A stretch of 33,905 bases of DNA from a virus (taxonomy: Duplodnaviria > Heunggongvirae > Uroviricota > Caudoviricetes). The DNA is taken from the IMG/VR virus record IMGVR_UViG_2541047807_000007, one strand, 5' to 3'. Positions 7,962 through 28,493 of this stretch are shown piece by piece. Each line of letters begins with the position of its first letter. Within the stretch, counting starts at the first letter, position 1. The translations under genes were made by a program, and so were the position numbers. The notes beneath the pieces were generated by a model. That model was not told where the DNA came from, searched no databases, and worked only from the letters and a program-made list of their open reading frames with translations.

Positions 7962-9263
7962 ATGGAAAATATAAAGATTGATAAGTTTCTCACTATTCAA
8001 AAAGTTGATATTCCTCTTAAGAAAGTGAATATATTTATTGGGCCTCAGGCACAGGGGAAAAGTGTCATTGCAAAGCTAATAAAATATTTTAAAGATTATC
8101 CTATGGATATACTACGAGCTTCAACAGAGGGTAAAACTAAAAGAGATATATTGAAGGAGCAAAAGAATAAGTTTAGTAAAATTTTCCCTCAGCAGTATTG
8201 GGCTGATGATGAGTTTTTTATTGAGTATAGTAATAAGCACTATTGGGTGCGGATTACTAATCGAAAAAATAGCAAAGGGTCATTGAAAATAGACCTTTCT
8301 GAGAATTTAACGAAGACGATTGCTAAACTTCGTTTGATTGTACGAAAGGATTTAGATGAAAATATTGAGAATTCACTTGCAGAAAGCGTTACGAGAAGAC
8401 GTAAACGCGGAATTGAACATGAATTGCGAGTATGTCTTTCTCTAGGATTGTTTTCAGAACCAGAAACAAAGCTTGAAAGTGTTTTTTATATCCCCGCAGG
8501 GCGCTCTTTTTTTGCTAATTTGCAAAAAAATGTGTTTTCATTTTTATCCAGTAGTATAGAAATTGACTACTTTTTGACAGAGTTTGGTTCTCTGTATGAA
8601 CAAACAAAAAAATTATTTAACCAAGATTACATGATTAGGATGCTTAGGGGGGCTGTGCCTCAACATGTTAATAAACTTGTGGAGGAGTTGATTTGCGGAA
8701 AATATATAACAGAAAAGGGTGAGGATTTTATTCGTCATGCTGCTAAGAAGACGAATCTTAACAACTCGAGCTCAGGGCAGCAAGAAGCGTTACCAATGGC
8801 TTTAATGTTATCCTCATGGCCGTATTTACAGTCTGTGACTAGTAAGAGTTTTATTATTGAGGAGCCGGAGGCTCATCTGTTTCCTTCTGCCCAAGCAAAA
8901 GTTGTATCTTTAATAGCCTCAGCGTATAACCAAGCAGAAAGCTATTGTAGCTATACAATAACAACACATAGTCCATATATTCTAAGTGCCTTCAATAATT
9001 TGATTCAAGCAGGTAATGCATTAAAGTGTATTAAGGGCAAGAATAATACCGATATCGAACGCTTATATAAGCTTGTTCCAGAGTCTCAAATTATTGATTT
9101 TGATGATGTGACAGCTTATATGGTTAATGCTGGGAAAGTGACGGAAATACTGGATTCCGAACTAAATATATTAGATGCGAATGAAATAGATAGGATTTCC
9201 TCTATTTTTTCAGAGACTTTTGATGCATTGATTGATATCGAATATTCGGCTACTGTGAATTAG
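7962..9263 (+). CDS. OLD-like / AAA_21-type ABC ATPase (433 aa), no fused nuclease domain; cargo
   Basis: Walker A GPQAQGKS near the N-terminus, Q-loop-like YIPAGR, ABC signature-like SSGQQ, Walker B FIIEEPEAHLFP, H-loop TTHSP; SD AAGGAG; very AT-rich. Confidence 0.8.
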   Translation: MENIKIDKFLTIQKVDIPLKKVNIFIGPQAQGKSVIAKLIKYFKDYPMDILRASTEGKTKRDILKEQKNKFSKIFPQQYWADDEFFIEYSNKHYWVRITNRKNSKGSLKIDLSENLTKTIAKLRLIVRKDLDENIENSLAESVTRRRKRGIEHELRVCLSLGLFSEPETKLESVFYIPAGRSFFANLQKNVFSFLSSSIEIDYFLTEFGSLYEQTKKLFNQDYMIRMLRGAVPQHVNKLVEELICGKYITEKGEDFIRHAAKKTNLNNSSSGQQEALPMALMLSSWPYLQSVTSKSFIIEEPEAHLFPSAQAKVVSLIASAYNQAESYCSYTITTHSPYILSAFNNLIQAGNALKCIKGKNNTDIERLYKLVPESQIIDFDDVTAYMVNAGKVTEILDSELNILDANEIDRISSIFSETFDALIDIEYSATVN

Positions 9264-9271
9264 GTGATTGA

Positions 9272-9709
9272 ATGTGTAAAAATTGCAAAGGAAAAACAAA
9301 AAATAAAATCATTGTGCTATCTGATAAAGGAACATCAACGCAATTGTCAGTCACAAATGATAATGAGTTGGAAGTTGAGCATAAGTTAATAGATGGTTGC
9401 GCTATTGTTGTTGGAGAGCGGTGTGATCATTATTTGAAGATTTATAACAATCAGGATGTTTCACATCTTTTTGTTGAACTTAAAGGAAGTGATGTTGAAA
9501 AAGCTGTTAAACAGATAGTGACAACTTTAAAGTCAGGTGTGATTAATGTAGGTGCTAAAGAAAAAAAACATGGTGCTATTGTTAGCACTAGGAATCCGCT
9601 AAACTCAACAGAAACCAATAGGTTAAAGAAGAAAATTCTTTTGAGTGACGGAGTGAATTTGCATTTCTATAAAATGAAGGCGCAGCAAAAAATAACTTCT
9701 TTTACATGA
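9272..9709 (+). CDS. Hypothetical 145-aa Cys-containing partner of the ATPase (candidate effector)
   Basis: Starts 8 nt after the ATPase stop with SD AGGTGA; N-terminal CxxC (MCKNCKGK), C43/C51-DH, VELKGSD and LLSDG acidic motifs; same AT-rich composition as the ATPase. Confidence 0.65.
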   Translation: MCKNCKGKTKNKIIVLSDKGTSTQLSVTNDNELEVEHKLIDGCAIVVGERCDHYLKIYNNQDVSHLFVELKGSDVEKAVKQIVTTLKSGVINVGAKEKKHGAIVSTRNPLNSTETNRLKKKILLSDGVNLHFYKMKAQQKITSFT

Positions 9710-19049: not shown

Positions 19050-19835
19050 TTATGAATGATTTTTATTTGATGCTTTGTATTCTAAAACCTTCTTATTGGC
19101 GTAAAAGAATTTTGTATATGACAGGAATATAACCAGACCTGAAGTGAAATAGACGAGGGATAGTATTAATAATGCTTTTTTGTGACTGTTATTATCTTTA
19201 ATCTCCTGGCTTAACCATTCGGAGTCCTCCTCGTTTAGCTGTAAGAGCTTATTGCAGGCGATTTCAGGAAGTGTGTCTTTTATAAATACGTTTTGCAGTC
19301 TCTTGCAATCGGCAAGGCTATAAGTTTTATTAAATTCAACTGCTTTATTTTTGAAGGATAAAAGAACTTTGTCACTATAAACATAGTACATCATATTTTT
19401 ATATGGTATGCCTATGGCATCTCTTACTATAGCGGATTGTTTGTTGTGTATATAACATGCGAAGAGAATATAAATAATACTGGCCAGAATTACAATTATT
19501 GTTTTAATTATGTGTGGTGGTTTTGTTATGTCACCCCAGAAGCGAGTAAGGAAAAAATACGATGTTTTTAGTTTTCCATCAATCAGCCCCTGCTGTATCA
19601 TTCTCACATCTTCGATGCCTGATACATTGATTCCGTTAATTATTTTAAATAGTTGAATGTCGCGCCATTTTTTGTCGAGCATTTTTAACTTTCTGTCTGA
19701 ATACTCAAGATTGAAATGATGTGCAATAAACCTCATAAGATTACTTTTACCAAAGGTAACAAATGTTAATGCTATTAATAAAAATAGATACAAAGAGATA
19801 AACCACCACGCATTAGTCACATTATCACTGAACAT
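19050..19835 (-). CDS. Cargo integral membrane protein (261 aa, about 3 TM helices), AT-rich, antisense to the late operon
   Basis: SD GAGGAG before the ATG; hydrophobic segments near residues 10-30, 118-140 and 233-253; codon composition unlike the backbone. Confidence 0.7.
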   Translation of the reverse strand: MFSDNVTNAWWFISLYLFLLIALTFVTFGKSNLMRFIAHHFNLEYSDRKLKMLDKKWRDIQLFKIINGINVSGIEDVRMIQQGLIDGKLKTSYFFLTRFWGDITKPPHIIKTIIVILASIIYILFACYIHNKQSAIVRDAIGIPYKNMMYYVYSDKVLLSFKNKAVEFNKTYSLADCKRLQNVFIKDTLPEIACNKLLQLNEEDSEWLSQEIKDNNSHKKALLILSLVYFTSGLVIFLSYTKFFYANKKVLEYKASNKNHS

Positions 19836-24597: not shown

Positions 24598-25125
24598 ATG
24601 CAGCATTTAAAAAATATTACGGCGGGTAATCCAAAAACGGTTGAACAATATCAATTGACAAAGGACTTTGATGTTGTCTGGTTTTTTTCAGAAGATGGTA
24701 AGAACTGGTACGAAGAACAAAAGTATTTTGCTGATGACACGATAAAAATAGCGTACGACAAAGATAATATCATCCGCTATGTGGAAAAGGATGTGACAGC
24801 TATCAGACCGGATGGATTAAGTGTTGTTGAAGTGGCGGATATTACTGCTAACCGACGGGCGGACATTTCAGGGAACTGGATGTTTAAGGACGGCAAAGTG
24901 ATTAAACGCATTTATACGGCAGAGGAATTACAGCAGCAGGCAGAAATTCAGAAAGCCAGACTTCTTGCAGATGCTGAATCCGTGATTTTGCCGCTGGAGC
25001 GCGCGGTCAGACTGAACATGGCAACAGATGAGGAGCGCACACGGCTGGAGGCTTGGGAACGTTACAGCGTTGTGGTCAGTCGTGTGGATCCTACAAATCC
25101 TGAATGGCCGGAAATGCCGCAATAA
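24598..25125 (+). CDS. G: Tail fibre assembly chaperone gpG (175 aa)
   Basis: Length and position of P2 gpG, immediately after H. Confidence 0.85.
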
Positions 25126-25158: not shown

Positions 25159-25202
25159 ATGGCACAGAGTAAAGCCTAATCTGACAGTCCGCTCTGTGCC
25201 AT
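25159..25202. other. 11-bp perfect inverted repeat ATGGCACAGAG-N22-CTCTGTGCCAT downstream of G
   Basis: Seen in sequence 34 bp after the G stop; no flanking T-tract; possible end of the late operon or a protein-binding site. Confidence 0.35.
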
Positions 25203-25318
25203 TACCGGACATACTGAGCAGAAGGCTAAAAAGGACGCTTTCAGGACATATAGCAAGGGAGCAAGGATGAAAGAATTAACCCAGTATATTTAATGTTTCA
25301 ATCATGATAGTTTCTGAA

Positions 25319-25347
25319 TTAAAGGGGGGGGTACCCACCCCCTTTAA
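25319..25347. terminator. G/C-rich hairpin (TTAAAGGGGGGGG-TAC-CCACCCCCTTTAA) immediately after the stop of the minus-strand 92-aa gene
   Basis: Near-perfect inverted repeat abutting the stop codon, with AT-rich flanks on both strands. Confidence 0.55.
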
Positions 25348-25626
25348 TTACTTGTTCCACTCAGTCAGAATTTGGTTACTAACTTCATCTGAGAGATTGT
25401 ACCAATAAGCTGAGTTATTGGTTGCATCTACAACAATAAGCTTATCATCACTATCCATGACCGCCCTCACAATTTTGGCTGCATCCTCGGCAGAGTAACT
25501 ACAGTTAACATACCAGTTCGATTCAGTTGTTAAAGCCCAATTTCCTAAAGATTTAATTGCATCATACACAGCCGCATAATCTTTCGTTTTAATGAGGTCG
25601 TAAGTAATAAATAAATTATTAGCCAT
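25348..25626 (-). CDS. Hypothetical 92-aa protein (cargo), downstream of the DUF3606-like gene
   Basis: SD GGGAG before the ATG; aromatic-rich small globular-looking protein; AT-rich; no family I can name. Confidence 0.6.
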   Translation of the reverse strand: MANNLFITYDLIKTKDYAAVYDAIKSLGNWALTTESNWYVNCSYSAEDAAKIVRAVMDSDDKLIVVDATNNSAYWYNLSDEVSNQILTEWNK

Positions 25627-25645
25627 AAATCATCTCCCAAAGGAC

Positions 25646-25672
25646 AAAGAAAAAAGCGCCTAGAAAGGCGCT
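25646..25672 (-). terminator. Intrinsic terminator (AGCGCC-TTTCTA-GGCGCT + T6) between the DUF3606-like gene and the 92-aa gene
   Basis: On the minus strand a GC stem is followed directly by TTTTTTCTTT; lies between two co-oriented genes, suggesting attenuation or independent expression. Confidence 0.6.
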
Positions 25673-25678
25673 CATATA

Positions 25679-25858
25679 TTAATGGTCTTTAAGCCATGCC
25701 TGTACTTTCTTAGCCGAATGACCTACAGCCTGTACGGCTTGAACAAGTTTGGCCTCGCTAACTCCAAACTTTTCAGCCCAATCACGTCTCTCGTAATCCT
25801 GTTTGATACTTATTAAATCATTGTCAGGGGTACCGATTTTGGTCTTATCATCAGCCAT
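25679..25858 (-). CDS. DUF3606-like small protein (59 aa from internal ATG; track ORF extends to 25897)
   Basis: Motif W.EKFGVSEAKL..AV.AVG.S...V..WL is typical of the DUF3606 family as I recall it; SD GAGGA before the internal Met. Confidence 0.55.
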   Translation of the reverse strand: MADDKTKIGTPDNDLISIKQDYERRDWAEKFGVSEAKLVQAVQAVGHSAKKVQAWLKDH

Positions 25859-26349
25859 TTTACTGATTCCTCGTGATACAGGCTTATACCTGCCCATTAG
25901 TTATATGGCTCCCGTGCTGCTTCGTAAACGTTCAATAATCAAACAATTGACACTGATCATAAAACCAGTTAGAGGATTTGACTCTAGCTTGGATATATGA
26001 TGATGCCACCCCCTTTATATTGTTGTCGGTAACTCACAGACATTGAACTCATGCTGGTGAGTGAAAGGCTACATAAACGCCCAACATTTAAACTGCCCTC
26101 AGCAGTGTTCGCGGAGCAATATACAGGCTTCGTATTCAATCCTTGCCCTACGAGAAACCCTAGCCGTTGCCTCGTTTTCAAGTGTCAGGAAGTTCTTTGT
26201 CAGACCTCATACAGTCTTGGGCTGGGTGAGGTGCATGGGGGAAGTTGAAGCCTTAACTGTTGAGGTAAATCGAACTATAAGTGTGCAATTTTTCAAGCTC
26301 GGCGCTATTTTAGTATTGAAAACAATTAGTACGCCCCCAAGGACAACTC

Positions 26350-27042
26350 ATGATCGAATTTATCGCAGAGCATATAAACACAGTAAGTACACTTATCTCC
26401 GCTTTGGCAGCATTGCTAACAGCAGTTGCTACATTTTTCTTGTGGAGAGTAACAAGGCTATTAGCAGACGAGACAAAAAGGATGGTTGACGCATCAGTTC
26501 AACCTCATGTCGTTGTGACTCTTGAACCAAATTCTTGGGCTGCTTTTTATTTTGATATCAATATTGCTAATACCGGAAATGCCCCAGCCTATGATATTGA
26601 AGTCGGATTTAATCCCCCACTGGTTAATGCAGAACATAGAAAAAATAAAGGTATACCATTTAGCAAGGTTAGCGTATTGAAAAACGGCCATTCCCTCAAC
26701 AGCAGTCTTTGTAAGTATGACCAGATTAAAGATCAAGTTTATTCTGTTAGTATTAGCTGGTCTAAACAGCCGGGCTCAACTGAAAGAGAGCGGAATGAGT
26801 ATTCTTATGATATGGCTTCTTTCGAGGGGGTTAGCTACTTAGGTGCAAGGAGTCCAATGACACAGATAGCTGAGCAGATGAAAAAGATTAGAGAAGACTG
26901 GAGGCCGATTTCCCAGGGAAGCAAAAAAATTAAAACAGACAACTATAATTCAAGTGACAGAGCCGAGGAACAACGAGCACGTGAAGAGTGGTATCAGACC
27001 ACTGCAAAGAAATGGGATAAAGAAAAGCAAAAAGATAACTAA
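26350..27042 (+). CDS. Cargo membrane-anchored protein (230 aa): N-terminal TM helix, central domain, highly charged K/E-rich C-terminal tail
   Basis: SD AAGGA; hydrophobic segment at residues 12-32 followed by RVTRLL (positive-inside); occupies the P2 Z/fun position between G and FI. Confidence 0.7.
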   Translation: MIEFIAEHINTVSTLISALAALLTAVATFFLWRVTRLLADETKRMVDASVQPHVVVTLEPNSWAAFYFDINIANTGNAPAYDIEVGFNPPLVNAEHRKNKGIPFSKVSVLKNGHSLNSSLCKYDQIKDQVYSVSISWSKQPGSTERERNEYSYDMASFEGVSYLGARSPMTQIAEQMKKIREDWRPISQGSKKIKTDNYNSSDRAEEQRAREEWYQTTAKKWDKEKQKDN

Positions 27043-27209
27043 TACAATTGACCTGCTCCCCATAAATTAGCATACCACAATCTCAGGTCCGCTCTTCGCT
27101 CAAAACAGGCTGTCAGATTTGACAGAATTTTGGTTACGTAATTTGTCAGTTGGAAACAGAGAGAGTACAAATCAAGGCAGGCAAGCTGATTGCCCGCCTT
27201 TTCTTTATC

Positions 27210-27302: not shown

Positions 27303-28493
27303 ATGAGTGACTATCATCATGGCGTGCAGGTGCTGGAGATTAACGACGGCACCCGCGTCATTTCCACCGTATCCACGGCCATTGTCGGCATGGTCTGCAC
27401 GGCCAGCGATGCGGATGCGGAAACCTTCCCCCTCAATAAACCTGTGCTGATTACCAATGTGCAGAGCGCAATTGCAAAGGCCGGTAAAAAAGGCACGCTG
27501 GCGGCATCGTTGCAGGCCATCGCTGACCAGTCAAAACCGGTCACCGTTGTCGTGCGCGTGGAAGACGGCACCGGTGATGACGAGGAAACGAAACTCGCGC
27601 AGACCGTTTCCAATATCATCGGCACCACCGACGAAAACGGTCAGTACACCGGACTAAAAGCCCTGCTGGCGGCGGAGTCGGTAACCGGTGTTAAACCGCG
27701 TATTCTCGGTGTGCCGGGACTGGATACCAAAGAGGTGGCTGTTGCACTGGCATCCGTCTGTCAGAAGCTGCGCGCTTTCGGATATATCAGCGCATGGGGC
27801 TGTAAAACCATTTCCGAGGTGAAAGCTTACCGCCAGAATTTCAGCCAGCGTGAGCTGATGGTCATCTGGCCGGATTTCCTCGCATGGGATACGGTCACCA
27901 GTACCACCGCCACCGCGTATGCCACCGCCCGTGCGCTGGGTCTGCGCGCTAAAATCGACCAGGAGCAGGGCTGGCATAAAACGCTGTCCAATGTCGGGGT
28001 GAACGGTGTTACCGGCATCAGCGCCTCTGTATTCTGGGATTTGCAGGAGTCCGGCACCGATGCTGACCTGCTTAACGACTCAGGCGTTACTACGCTGATT
28101 CGCCGCGACGGTTTCCGCTTCTGGGGTAACCGTACCTGCTCTGATGACCCGCTGTTCCTCTTTGAAAACTACACCCGCACCGCGCAGGTGCTGGCCGACA
28201 CGATGGCTGAGGCGCACATGTGGGCGGTGGACAAGCCCATCACCGCAACGCTGATTCGCGACATCGTTGACGGCATCAATGCCAAATTCCGTGAGCTGAA
28301 AACAAACGGCTATATCGTGGATGCGACCTGCTGGTTCAGCGAAGAATCCAACGATGCGGAAACCCTTAAGGCCGGAAAACTGTATATCGACTACGACTAT
28401 ACCCCGGTGCCTCCTCTTGAAAACCTGACCCTGCGCCAGCGTATTACCGATAAATACCTGGCAAATCTGGTCACCTCGGTTAACAGCAATTAA
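27303..28493 (+). CDS. FI: Contractile tail sheath protein gpFI (396 aa)
   Basis: Length and position of P2 FI. Confidence 0.9.
   Translation: MSDYHHGVQVLEINDGTRVISTVSTAIVGMVCTASDADAETFPLNKPVLITNVQSAIAKAGKKGTLAASLQAIADQSKPVTVVVRVEDGTGDDEETKLAQTVSNIIGTTDENGQYTGLKALLAAESVTGVKPRILGVPGLDTKEVAVALASVCQKLRAFGYISAWGCKTISEVKAYRQNFSQRELMVIWPDFLAWDTVTSTTATAYATARALGLRAKIDQEQGWHKTLSNVGVNGVTGISASVFWDLQESGTDADLLNDSGVTTLIRRDGFRFWGNRTCSDDPLFLFENYTRTAQVLADTMAEAHMWAVDKPITATLIRDIVDGINAKFRELKTNGYIVDATCWFSEESNDAETLKAGKLYIDYDYTPVPPLENLTLRQRITDKYLANLVTSVNSN

What the first reader, a model, noticed from the sequence alone, without database searches (positions are those of the whole stretch)
25348..25897. Minus-strand DUF3606-like plus 92-aa gene pair, separated by an intrinsic terminator, at the P2 Z/fun hotspot
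Between G and FI (where P2 carries the Z/fun phage-exclusion gene) lie two co-oriented small genes: a DUF3606-like protein and an aromatic-rich 92-aa protein. A clean terminator (GC stem + T6) sits between them only about 20 nt before the second gene's start, suggesting differential expression of the two. Both are AT-rich. The function of DUF3606 is unknown to me, so the pair may be an uncharacterised small defence or toxin-antitoxin-like module.
Basis: partly seen in the sequence, partly recalled or inferred. Interest (0 to 1): 0.6.

Follow-up and report, generated by a model that had tools for sequence, protein, structure and literature searches.

The report
Mosaic phage cargo with Cas2-like gene
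Two small genes carried as cargo in a P2-like prophage are real and conserved, but they were joined by recombination and are not a matched pair; the second encodes an unstudied small protein with the fold of the nucleases Cas2 and VapD, whose function is still unknown.

Summary
Two co-oriented minus-strand genes lie between tail-fibre assembly gene G and sheath gene FI. One is a DUF3606 gene, whose real product is 59 aa (25679-25858), not 72 aa. The other is a 92-aa gene (25348-25626). A strong terminator-like hairpin (25654-25673, then U6CUUU) separates them, and the region is AT-rich.

The 92-aa protein models confidently as a Cas2/VapD-type fold, closest to BPSL1038 and Cas2. It belongs to a large unannotated family of about 2,500 clusters found across many phyla.

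The pair is not a fixed two-component system:
- DUF3606 accompanies the 92-aa gene in only 1 of 50 species loci and in none of 22 distant phage loci.
- In Enterobacterales the upstream slot holds DUF3606, a 42-aa gene or DUF2188.
- A near-identical DUF3606 segment is joined to 92-aa alleles that are only 67-72% identical in DNA.
- A remnant of an integrase gene shows the module was captured from the end of a small prophage-like island.

Within Enterobacterales, however, the layout "intact small ORF, hairpin, 92-aa gene" is always kept, so a looser functional coupling remains possible.

No known defence or toxin-antitoxin model matches. Function is inferred, not shown. Interest is moderate.

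The parts
25679..25858 (-). DUF3606 gene, 59 aa. The longest ORF reaches 25897 (72 aa), but that start is not supported.
25900..25928 (-). Putative sigma-70-type promoter of the DUF3606 gene: -35 TTTACG (25923-25928), 17-nt spacer, -10 TATAAC (25900-25905).
   Evidence: Read from the sequence. Both hexamers and the spacing are conserved in the island copy, in phage L094, in Pantoea and in the otherwise diverged Y. ruckeri upstream region (TTGACG / TATAGC). The strict consensus scan did not call it because the -10 lacks the final T. Inferred, not shown.
25868..25872 (-). GAGGA ribosome-binding site, 9 nt before the ATG at 25858.
   Evidence: Read from the sequence. Invariant in the alignment of window, P2-EC53, R18C and island copies.
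25644..25673 (-). Intergenic intrinsic-terminator-like hairpin: GAGCGCCT-TTCT-AGGCGCTT (25654-25673) plus a T-run (25644-25653).
   Evidence: Terminator scan. -13.3 kcal/mol, z = -4.7. The same GCGCC/GGCGC stem precedes the 92-aa gene in all Enterobacterales variants, whatever the upstream gene. It is present in 20 of 20 P2 cassettes, 0 of 38 other genomes and 0 of 22 distant phages; the background rate is 2%.
25634..25638 (-). GGGAG ribosome-binding site of the 92-aa gene.
   Evidence: Read from the sequence. A GGAGA-type site is conserved at this position in all variants. Only about 15 nt separate the T-run from it, which leaves no room for a promoter.
25348..25626 (-). 92-aa gene encoding a protein with a Cas2/VapD-type ferredoxin-like fold (family phrog_1090; no Pfam family).
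25317..25349 (.). G-run/C-run palindrome after the 92-aa gene, terminator-like on both strands.
   Evidence: -20 kcal/mol on either strand. In the source islands the same element lies between the 92-aa gene and the convergent integrase gene.
25195..25293 (+). Remnant of the 3' end of a DUF6538-type tyrosine integrase gene (last ~32 codons plus stop, cut off upstream).
   Evidence: tblastn with the island integrase gives E 5e-12: AITGHTEQKAKKDAFRTYSKGARMKELTQYI*. DNA homology of window 25198-25969 to island L004 4654-5425.
26350..27042 (+). Neighbouring cargo gene in the same hotspot: a 230-aa protein with a hydrophobic N-terminal segment ('ORF1, putative lysogenic conversion protein' of P2-EC53).
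   Evidence: phrog_11802 at E 3e-147; no Pfam, PADLOC or NCBIfam hit. AJ512682 annotation. Always with the pair in P2-type contigs, but truncated or frameshifted in 4 of 20.
25178..25210 (.). Left arm of a weak inverted repeat flanking the cargo; the right arm is at 27087-27119.
   Evidence: 33 nt, 73% complementary. Corresponds to the repeat_regions annotated in AJ512682. The Pantoea copy of the cassette spans window 25195-27102, i.e. the DNA between the arms.

Best explanation
The locus is a mosaic accessory ("moron") module, not a dedicated two-protein system.

Anatomy. The module's constant part is the 92-aa gene, preceded by a conserved GC hairpin with a U-run and by its own ribosome-binding site, and followed by a bidirectional terminator. 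Upstream of the hairpin is an exchangeable small-gene unit that supplies the promoter. Here that unit is DUF3606. In other enterobacterial copies it is a 40-42-aa Lys-rich gene or a DUF2188 gene.

Expression (inferred). Transcription starts at the promoter-like site at 25900-25928. Most transcripts should stop at the hairpin, giving abundant DUF3606 mRNA. The 92-aa gene has no room for a promoter of its own, so it would be made only from the fraction that reads through, keeping its product at a low dose.

Product (inferred). The 92-aa protein has a Cas2/VapD-type fold and probably acts as a dimer. By the topology of the sheet it should present an acidic/Ser cluster at one edge (D10 at the end of strand 1, S36 in the b2-b3 turn, D58 and D61 before strand 4). 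The most likely activity is cutting or binding nucleic acid, as in BPSL1038, VapD and Cas2. This would be used for the benefit of the mobile element or its lysogen; the target is unknown.

DUF3606. It is a small three-helix protein of a family otherwise found in chromosomal stress-gene clusters. It most likely acts on its own.

Origin (shown). The module was captured, together with about 100 nt of the neighbouring integrase gene, from the integrase-proximal end of a small prophage-like enterobacterial island. It now sits beside a 230-aa protein gene with a hydrophobic N-terminal segment in the P2 Z/fun hotspot.

Shown: the anatomy, the fold, the mosaic history, purifying selection on both genes, and the origin.
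Inferred: promoter use, read-through, dimerisation, the active site, nuclease activity and the biological role.
For: - Anatomy and hairpin.
- The hairpin is constant upstream of the 92-aa gene while the upstream gene varies.
- Conserved residues: D10, S36, D58 and D61 are invariant among close relatives. In 99 diverse representatives D61 is 100% conserved, D/E10 87% and S/T36 88%. VapD catalysis uses an Asp and a Ser (PMC11980593). In BPSL1038 and Cas2 the Asp lies at the end of strand 1 (PMC10491678).
- Dimer: tandem-duplicated fusions of the domain exist.
- No fixed partner.
- About half of VapD homologues are also stand-alone.
- Mosaicism: upstream region plus DUF3606 are 88-98% identical, against 67-72% for the 92-aa gene. 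dS is 0.41 against saturated.
- Capture from the island.
- The composite cassette also occurs outside P2, in Pantoea.
- DUF3606 elsewhere sits in stress-gene clusters. A DUF3606 protein has been detected by proteomics in S. maltophilia (PMC10178689).
- The pair is intact in 20 of 20 P2-type viral contigs, while the 230-aa gene is damaged in 4.
Against: - No expression data were available. The promoter has a non-canonical -10 (TATAAC), and the consensus scan found no promoter at all.
- No sequence search reaches significance against Cas2, VapD or BPSL1038.
- The best-conserved residue, D61, has no known counterpart in Cas2 or VapD.
- One homologous domain pair is embedded in a Baseplate_J-like structural protein, which fits a binding module as well as it fits an enzyme.
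- All 24 Enterobacterales loci keep an intact small ORF 52-60 nt upstream. That is more than a mere promoter donor needs and hints at functional coupling.
Confidence: 0.5

Rival explanations
1. A VapD-like type II toxin-antitoxin or abortive-infection pair. The 92-aa protein would be a nuclease toxin. The small upstream protein (DUF3606 here; the 42-aa protein or DUF2188 elsewhere) would be its neutraliser, made in excess because of the terminator between the genes. Antitoxin families would be swapped as is known for other toxin families.
For: - VapD-like fold, with the Asp and Ser retained.
- Location in a hotspot that holds fun(Z) and three PD defence systems (PMC9519451).
- In 24 of 24 Enterobacterales loci an intact small ORF ends 52-60 nt upstream.
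- The terminator would give a high upstream-to-downstream expression ratio.
- Neighbours of distant homologues include defence and mobile-element genes.
Against: - Outside Enterobacterales there is no recurrent partner, and many loci have no co-oriented upstream gene.
- DUF3606 is a three-helix bundle, unlike VapX and VapY (SH3 fold) or VapW (VapD-like).
- DUF3606 genes elsewhere lack the 92-aa partner.
- The two genes do not co-diverge.
- A 52-nt spacer with a strong terminator is atypical for type II operons.
- The 92-aa family is 45-60% identical across phyla, which is unusually conservative for a toxin.
- PADLOC gives no hit.
Confidence: 0.2
2. An element-encoded Cas2 mimic that interferes with, or modulates, CRISPR adaptation, for example by binding Cas1 of the host type I-E system. 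DUF3606 would be unrelated cargo.
For: - Structural similarity to E. coli type I-E Cas2 (5dlj_E, 4qdl_E).
- In two genomes the gene sits between cas3 and cse1 of a type I-E locus.
- The gene is carried by phages and islands of Enterobacterales, which often have type I-E systems.
Against: - Only 2 of 50 loci are next to CRISPR genes.
- Identity to Cas2 is 8-15%.
- The family is widespread in genomes and contexts with no CRISPR link.
- There is no evidence of a Cas1-binding surface.
- The conserved acidic/Ser cluster points to an enzyme rather than a decoy.
Confidence: 0.05
3. Passenger DNA: the pair was dragged into the P2 hotspot with the 230-aa gene, or by illegitimate recombination, and has no selected role in the P2 context.
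For: - The integrase remnant shows a sloppy capture.
- The cassette is a patchwork.
- No functional annotation exists for any of the three genes.
Against: - Both genes are under strong purifying selection.
- Both are intact in 20 of 20 P2-type viral contigs, while the 230-aa gene is damaged in 4.
- Promoter, ribosome-binding sites and terminators are all preserved.
- The cassette is present in about 100 of 5,426 complete E. coli genomes and in the viable phage R18C.
Confidence: 0.1

Closest known systems
BPSL1038 of Burkholderia pseudomallei (PDB 7vxr), a stand-alone Cas2/VapD-type nuclease sub-family (PMC10491678)
   Same: - A small stand-alone protein of about 90 aa with a b-a-b-b-a-b(-a) ferredoxin-like fold and no CRISPR context.
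- An Asp at the end of strand 1 and a Ser/Thr in the b2-b3 region.
- Function in the cell is unknown.
   Different: - No significant sequence match (HMMER E 0.5).
- The motif differs: D10...TES(34-36) plus D58/D61, instead of D11(X20)SST.
- An extra strand 5 and a C-terminal helix.
- The window family is phage- and island-borne and spans many phyla. BPSL1038 homologues are reported from seven genera.
VapD toxins of the VapXD, VapYD and VapWD type II toxin-antitoxin systems (PMC11980593)
   Same: - Cas2-like fold, about 90-110 aa, with catalytic Asp and Ser.
- About half of VapD homologues are stand-alone.
- A small upstream neighbour in some lineages.
- 9kan chains appear among the Foldseek hits.
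   Different: - No sequence-level membership (no Pfam or NCBIfam hit).
- The upstream partners (DUF3606, the 42-aa protein, DUF2188) are unrelated to VapX, VapY or VapW.
- A terminator lies between the genes.
- Toxicity is untested.
CRISPR adaptation protein Cas2 (Pfam PF09827)
   Same: - Fold and strand order.
- The Y-D-[IL] end of strand 1.
- Weak full-length profile hits in 24 of 49 members.
- Two homologues lie inside type I-E cas loci.
   Different: - Scores are below the Pfam gathering threshold (12.7 against 23.8 bits).
- The prophage has no cas1 and no CRISPR array.
- Identity is 8-15%.
Cargo of the P2 Z/fun hotspot: fun(Z) of P2 and the three PD systems found there by Vassallo et al. 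(PMC9519451)
   Same: - Same insertion point, between G and FI.
- AT-rich foreign DNA.
- Flanked by the weak inverted repeats annotated in AJ512682 for the P2-EC53 Z region.
   Different: No homology to any PADLOC model, a set that includes the PD systems. No defence phenotype is known.
Phage morons (promoter-gene-terminator units such as lambda bor/lom or the HK97 morons; from general knowledge)
   Same: An independent transcription unit with its own promoter-like site and terminators, deviant base composition, placement between conserved late genes, and presence or absence among close relatives.
   Different: There are two genes with an internal terminator. The same module also sits at the integrase end of an unrelated prophage-like island.

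Membership tests
DUF3606 (Pfam PF12244) | Profile match above the Pfam gathering score. | tested here: met
   65.3 bits against 24.3, covering profile positions 1-54 of 54.
DUF3606 (Pfam PF12244) | Conserved Arg and Trp, in a protein of about 57-72 aa (Pfam description, recalled from memory). | tested here: met
   R25 and W27 are invariant in 24 relatives; the product is 59 aa.
Cas2/VapD superfamily | Ferredoxin-like b1-a1-b2-b3-a2-b4 fold. | tested here: met
Cas2/VapD superfamily | Significant sequence-profile match (Pfam PF09827 at or above its gathering score, or HMMER to solved members). | tested here: not met
   12.7 bits against 23.8. Best of 49 members is E 0.0011. PDB profile searches are not significant; BPSL1038 gives E 0.5.
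Cas2/VapD superfamily | Acidic catalytic residue at the C-terminal end of strand 1, and Ser in the b2-b3 region. | tested here: met
   D10 and S36 are invariant in 49 close relatives. D/E is 87% and S/T 88% in 99 diverse representatives. Their positions follow from the model's secondary structure. Spatial proximity is inferred from topology, not measured.
Cas2/VapD superfamily | Homodimer with nuclease activity. | not testable with these tools
   Only indirect: tandem-duplicated fusions of the domain exist.
CRISPR-Cas adaptation module | Adjacent cas1 and a CRISPR array. | tested here: not met
   A near-identical prophage has no cas gene annotated. Rfam finds no CRISPR-related hit in the hotspot.
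Type II toxin-antitoxin system (VapD type) | The same partner family is conserved next to the toxin across its relatives. | tested here: not met
   DUF3606 is adjacent in 1 of 50 species loci and 0 of 22 distant phage loci. No recurrent partner.
Type II toxin-antitoxin system (VapD type) | Antitoxin of the VapX/VapY (SH3) or VapW (VapD-like) type. | tested here: not met
   DUF3606 models as a three-helix bundle. The definitions come from PMC11980593.
Type II toxin-antitoxin system (VapD type) | Tightly coupled bicistronic operon (overlap or a few nt, with no internal terminator). | tested here: not met
   A 52-nt spacer holding a -13.3 kcal/mol hairpin plus a U-run.
Type II toxin-antitoxin system (VapD type) | Toxicity of one product, neutralised by the other. 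| not testable with these tools
   Needs expression experiments.
Known anti-phage defence systems (PADLOC-DB v2.0.0) | A match to any defence-protein model. | tested here: not met
   Only E 0.019-0.027 noise-level hits (Cas2_II, PDC-M03B).
P2 Z/fun hotspot cargo | Non-core DNA between tail-fibre assembly gene G and sheath gene FI of a P2-like phage. | tested here: met
Intrinsic terminator | GC-rich stem-loop directly followed by a U-run. | tested here: met
   Termination efficiency in vivo was not tested.
Phage moron | Own promoter and terminator, deviant composition, variable presence among related phages. | tested here: inconclusive
   Terminators and composition are met, as is variable presence. 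The promoter is only a conserved promoter-like site with a non-canonical -10.

The most novel reading that the evidence does not exclude
The 92-aa protein founds a large, unannotated branch of the Cas2/VapD superfamily (about 2,500 clusters, with no Pfam family). It would act as a mobile-element-borne nuclease effector in conflicts between genetic elements, either as a minimal anti-phage or abortive-infection toxin, or as a modulator of CRISPR adaptation. In Enterobacterales it would be kept in check by an unusual design: an exchangeable small protein (DUF3606, DUF2188 or the 42-aa peptide) encoded upstream, and an intercistronic terminator that sets the dose. That would also give DUF3606 and DUF2188 their first function, as neutralisers or sensors.
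Probability: 0.15. Interest if true: 0.75.

Novelty: new member of a known kind. Interest (0 to 1): 0.4.

Why it matters
P2-like prophages are among the best-mapped carriers of anti-phage genes. Most cargo in their hotspots is still unnamed, and about 100 of 5,426 complete E. coli genomes carry this cassette.

This work adds four things:
- The 92-aa gene belongs to a very large, unannotated family with the fold of Cas2 and VapD, which gives a concrete biochemical hypothesis to test.
- DUF3606 is an exchangeable neighbour and not a cognate partner, which steers experiments away from a simple toxin-antitoxin design.
- The integrase remnant and the mosaic break at the hairpin give a clear example of how hotspot cargo is assembled from pieces of other mobile elements.
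- If the 92-aa protein proves to be an active nuclease with a role in phage-phage or phage-host conflict, it would add a widespread new branch to the Cas2/VapD superfamily. It would also give DUF3606 its first functional context.

Tried and rejected
- Known-family scans: PADLOC, NCBIfam and Rfam found nothing real. The Rfam matches are only sub-threshold hits on the GC palindrome.
- HMMER profiles of the 92-aa family against PDB sequences, with both 49 and 99 members, gave no significant hit.
- The AlphaFold-database fold library was unavailable.
- Literature: only two papers mention DUF3606, and neither gives a function. The P2-EC53 paper is not in the library. The supplements of the 2026 P2/P4 hotspot paper are not held. 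A search for stand-alone Cas2 in prophages gave nothing specific.
- The apparent disruption of DUF3606 in AJ512682 might have argued against an essential antitoxin. I rejected it, because the differences are single-base drop-outs in short homopolymer runs of a 2002 sequence.
- The 234-aa gene next to DUF3606 in Y. ruckeri is unrelated to the window's 230-aa ORF.
- The 42-aa family search found only 9 enterobacterial clusters, so it gave no outside context.
- The idea that the hairpin is a family-wide 5'-UTR element was rejected, because it is confined to the Enterobacterales module.
- The idea that the 92-aa gene replaces cas2 in the two type I-E loci could not be settled. cas1 is present, but the cas2 position lies beyond the fetched DNA.
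- The domain fusions gave no enzymatic partner, only tandem copies and one Baseplate_J-like protein.
Full report
**1. Observation**

The window is a complete P2-like prophage. A near-identical one lies between pflA and pflB in E. coli APEC O78.

Between the tail-fibre assembly gene (24598-25125, Caudo_TAP) and the sheath gene (27303-28493) lie 2.2 kb of AT-rich DNA, with GC about 0.39-0.46 against 0.52-0.60 in the flanking structural genes. It holds two minus-strand ORFs, 25679-25897 and 25348-25626, and one plus-strand ORF, 26350-27042.

The first minus-strand ORF is a clear DUF3606 protein: PF12244 at 65.3 bits against a cut-off of 24.3, and phrog_10779. Its true start is the internal ATG at 25858, giving 59 aa.
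- Every relative starts at MADDK.
- A GAGGA site lies 9 nt upstream of that ATG.
- RefSeq annotates that start.
- The conserved promoter-like -10 element lies downstream of the longer ORF's ATG.

Between the two genes is an 8-bp GC-rich hairpin (25654-25673) followed by U6CUUU. It folds at -13.3 kcal/mol, z = -4.7, and 0 of 200 shuffles fold as well. A G-run/C-run palindrome follows the 92-aa gene.

**2. Prior knowledge**

The same cassette is 98% identical in the viable phage R18C. The R18C paper already noted two short hypothetical ORFs at the fun(Z) position, one of them "DUF3606", and could not assign a function (PMC6823313).

It is also the "Z region" of P2-EC53 (AJ512682), where only the 230-aa "ORF1, putative lysogenic conversion protein" and flanking inverted repeats were annotated. 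That 2002 sequence has single-base drop-outs inside the DUF3606 gene, which explains the omission.

About 100 of 5,426 complete E. coli genomes carry the cassette.

The G-FI site is a recognised second defence hotspot of P2-like phages (PMC9519451). None of the three proteins matches a PADLOC model, and that set includes the PD systems found at this site.

**3. The 92-aa protein**

It matches only phrog_1090 (unknown function) and has no Pfam family.

- *Model.* With a 49-member alignment AlphaFold gives pLDDT 95.7 and the topology b1-a1-b2-b3-a2-b4-b5-a3.
- *Foldseek.* Against the PDB it ranks BPSL1038 first, then many Cas2 chains and VapD.
- *Sequence.* 24 of 49 members give weak full-length hits to Pfam Cas2, best E 0.0011. 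BPSL1038 appears at E 0.5 in a profile search. Nothing is significant.
- *Conserved residues.* Close relatives keep D10 (end of strand 1), S36 (b2-b3 turn), D58 and D61 invariant. Among 99 diverse representatives D61 is 100% conserved, D/E10 87% and S/T36 88%.
- *Comparison.* Asp at the end of strand 1 plus a Ser are the catalytic residues of VapD and Cas2-type nucleases (PMC11980593; PMC10491678).
- *Active site.* By the topology of the sheet these residues should cluster at one edge. That is inference; I could not measure it.
- *Family size.* An exhaustive profile search finds 2,493 representative clusters, 415 of them at E <= 1e-10. Nearly all are stand-alone proteins of about 92 aa.
- *Fusions.* A few members are tandem duplications, and one Baseplate_J-like protein has two copies.

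My reading is a probable new stand-alone branch of the Cas2/VapD superfamily. The fold is met; sequence membership is not.

**4. DUF3606**

Other DUF3606 genes lie in chromosomal clusters of small stress-type genes. None has a 92-aa neighbour.
- Pseudomonas: KGG proteins, hemerythrin and CinA.
- Pseudorhodoferax: Ku/LigD.
- A Burkholderiales genome: small unknown genes.
- Y. ruckeri: unrelated neighbours.

A DUF3606 protein has been detected by proteomics in S. maltophilia.

**5. Is it a pair?**

*Against a fixed pair*
- Among 50 species-representative genomes with a 92-aa homologue, spread over many phyla, only one has DUF3606 adjacent. That one is Pantoea leporis, which carries the same cassette.
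- Among 25 non-P2-type phage contigs, one has DUF3606, two have a 42-aa gene, and 22 have neither.
- No other partner recurs. Neighbours are heterogeneous, with a mobile-element and defence flavour: Thoeris TIR/SIR2, BfiI, YhaV, TniB, integrases, and twice cas3/cse1.

*For an architecture kept within Enterobacterales*
- In the usual enterobacterial context the 92-aa gene is the last gene of a small prophage-like island. The order is major head protein, tape-measure-like protein, small gene, 92-aa gene, then a convergent DUF6538-type integrase.
- In all 24 such loci an intact small ORF ends 52-60 nt before the 92-aa start. It is DUF3606, a 40-42-aa Lys-rich protein, or DUF2188.
- The same GCGCC-loop-GGCGC hairpin plus T-run always lies between the two. 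Outside Enterobacterales that hairpin is absent: 0 of 38 genomes and 0 of 22 phages, against a 2% background.

*Mosaic history*
- Among three lineages the promoter region plus the DUF3606 gene are 88-98% identical. The 92-aa gene is 67-72% identical, with the break just inside its 5' end.
- dS is 0.41 for DUF3606, against saturated (pS about 0.8) for the 92-aa gene between the same two loci.
- Both genes are under strong purifying selection: dN/dS about 0.03 for DUF3606, and pN 0.14 for the 92-aa gene.

So a nearly identical DUF3606 unit has been recombined onto at least three old 92-aa alleles.

**6. Origin of the P2 cargo**

Window 25198-25969 is homologous to the island. The homologous stretch runs from 110 nt upstream of DUF3606, through both genes and both hairpins, into the 3' end of the integrase gene.

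Window 25195-25293 on the plus strand still encodes the last ~32 residues of that integrase, cut off by an upstream stop. The module was therefore captured from such an island.

The composite 1.9-kb cassette consists of the 230-aa gene, DUF3606, the 92-aa gene and the integrase remnant, and corresponds to window 25195-27102. It also occurs in Pantoea beside acetoin genes, with no P2 genes nearby. It lies between the weak inverted repeats at 25178-25210 and 27087-27119.

**7. How it most likely works**

A promoter-like site is conserved even in Y. ruckeri: -35 TTTACG at 25923-25928, a 17-nt spacer, and -10 TATAAC at 25900-25905. It should drive DUF3606.

The hairpin should stop most transcripts. 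The 92-aa gene has a good GGGAG site but no space for a promoter, so it is probably made from read-through at a low dose.

Its product is most likely a dimeric nucleic-acid-cutting or -binding protein of the Cas2/VapD type, serving the mobile element or the lysogen. DUF3606 most likely acts independently.

All of this section is inferred. I put confidence at about 0.5.

**8. Rivals**
- *VapD-like toxin-antitoxin or abortive-infection pair with exchangeable antitoxins (0.2).* It is favoured by the fold, the hotspot and the always-intact upstream ORF. It is disfavoured by the lack of co-occurrence and co-divergence, the internal terminator, the non-VapX/Y/W partner, and the family's unusually high conservation across phyla.
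- *Cas2 mimic acting on CRISPR adaptation (0.05).* It rests only on the fold and on two loci next to cas genes.
- *Passenger DNA (0.1).* It is contradicted by purifying selection and by the pair being intact in 20 of 20 viral contigs, while the 230-aa gene is damaged in 4.

**9. Verdict**

The feature is real and correctly described, and it had already been noticed in the literature as "hypothetical morons". The pair is a recombinant cargo module, not a demonstrated system.

The new points are:
- the Cas2/VapD-type fold and the size of the 92-aa family;
- the exchangeable upstream slot with its conserved terminator;
- the capture from an integrase-bearing island.

I rate the novelty as a new member of a known kind, namely stand-alone Cas2/VapD-like proteins carried as phage cargo. 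Interest is moderate (0.4).

Noticed in passing
window 25195-25293 (+): Remnant of the last ~32 codons of a DUF6538-type tyrosine integrase gene (AITGHTEQKAKKDAFRTYSKGARMKELTQYI*), left over from the island from which the cargo was captured.
   Followed up: yes
window 7962-9263 (+) and 9272-9709 (+): The other P2 hotspot (the old/tin position, between replication gene A and the portal gene) carries a 433-aa AAA_15/AAA_21 ATPase (PADLOC PDC-M29A at 1.9e-31; AriA-like at 7e-26) and a 145-aa partner (PDC-M29B at 1.6e-4). This is a candidate two-gene defence system.
   Followed up: partly
window 19050-19835 (-): A 261-aa ORF on the opposite strand at the P2 orf30 variable spot, with no Pfam or PADLOC match.
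   Followed up: partly
window 26350-27042 (+): The 230-aa protein with a hydrophobic N-terminal segment that shares the hotspot (phrog_11802; 'lysogenic conversion protein ORF1' of P2-EC53) has no family or defence match. It is truncated or frameshifted in 4 of 20 P2-type viral contigs, while the neighbouring pair stays intact.
   Followed up: partly
L023 6001-6273 and L061 6001-6279: In two genomes the 92-aa homologue lies between cas3 and cse1 of a type I-E CRISPR-Cas locus. L023 also has a 281-aa gene inserted between the last Cascade-operon ORF and cas1. The cas2 position lies beyond the fetched DNA.
   Followed up: partly
P0242 (1,507 aa), residues ~365-540: A Baseplate_J-like protein with a CBM_5_12 module contains two tandem copies of the 92-aa domain. 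Several ~240-aa proteins are tandem duplications of it.
   Followed up: partly
L001 (AJ512682) 520-815: The 2002 P2-EC53 record shows several single-base drop-outs in GG and AAAA runs inside the DUF3606 gene and the hairpin. These are most likely sequencing errors, and they explain why only ORF1 was annotated.
   Followed up: yes
L014 4209-6428 (Pantoea leporis): The whole 1.9-kb cassette (230-aa gene, DUF3606, 92-aa gene, integrase remnant) occurs at 94% identity outside any P2 context. It lies beside acetoin-pathway genes and integrase fragments, and has a ~310-nt insertion between the 230-aa gene and DUF3606.
   Followed up: partly
L064 4814-4942, L015, L016, L017, L069 (upstream of the 92-aa gene): A 40-42-aa Lys-rich protein (MAKKTVVRSAITGQFVKPIEAKRHPDTTITETIKIPTKKAKK) is the commonest occupant of the slot upstream of the 92-aa gene in Enterobacterales. 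It has no Pfam or PHROG family, and gene callers often miss it.
   Followed up: partly
window 25178-25210 and 27087-27119: The inverted repeats annotated around the P2-EC53 Z region are weak here (33 nt, 73% complementary). The left arm overlaps the integrase remnant.
   Followed up: partly
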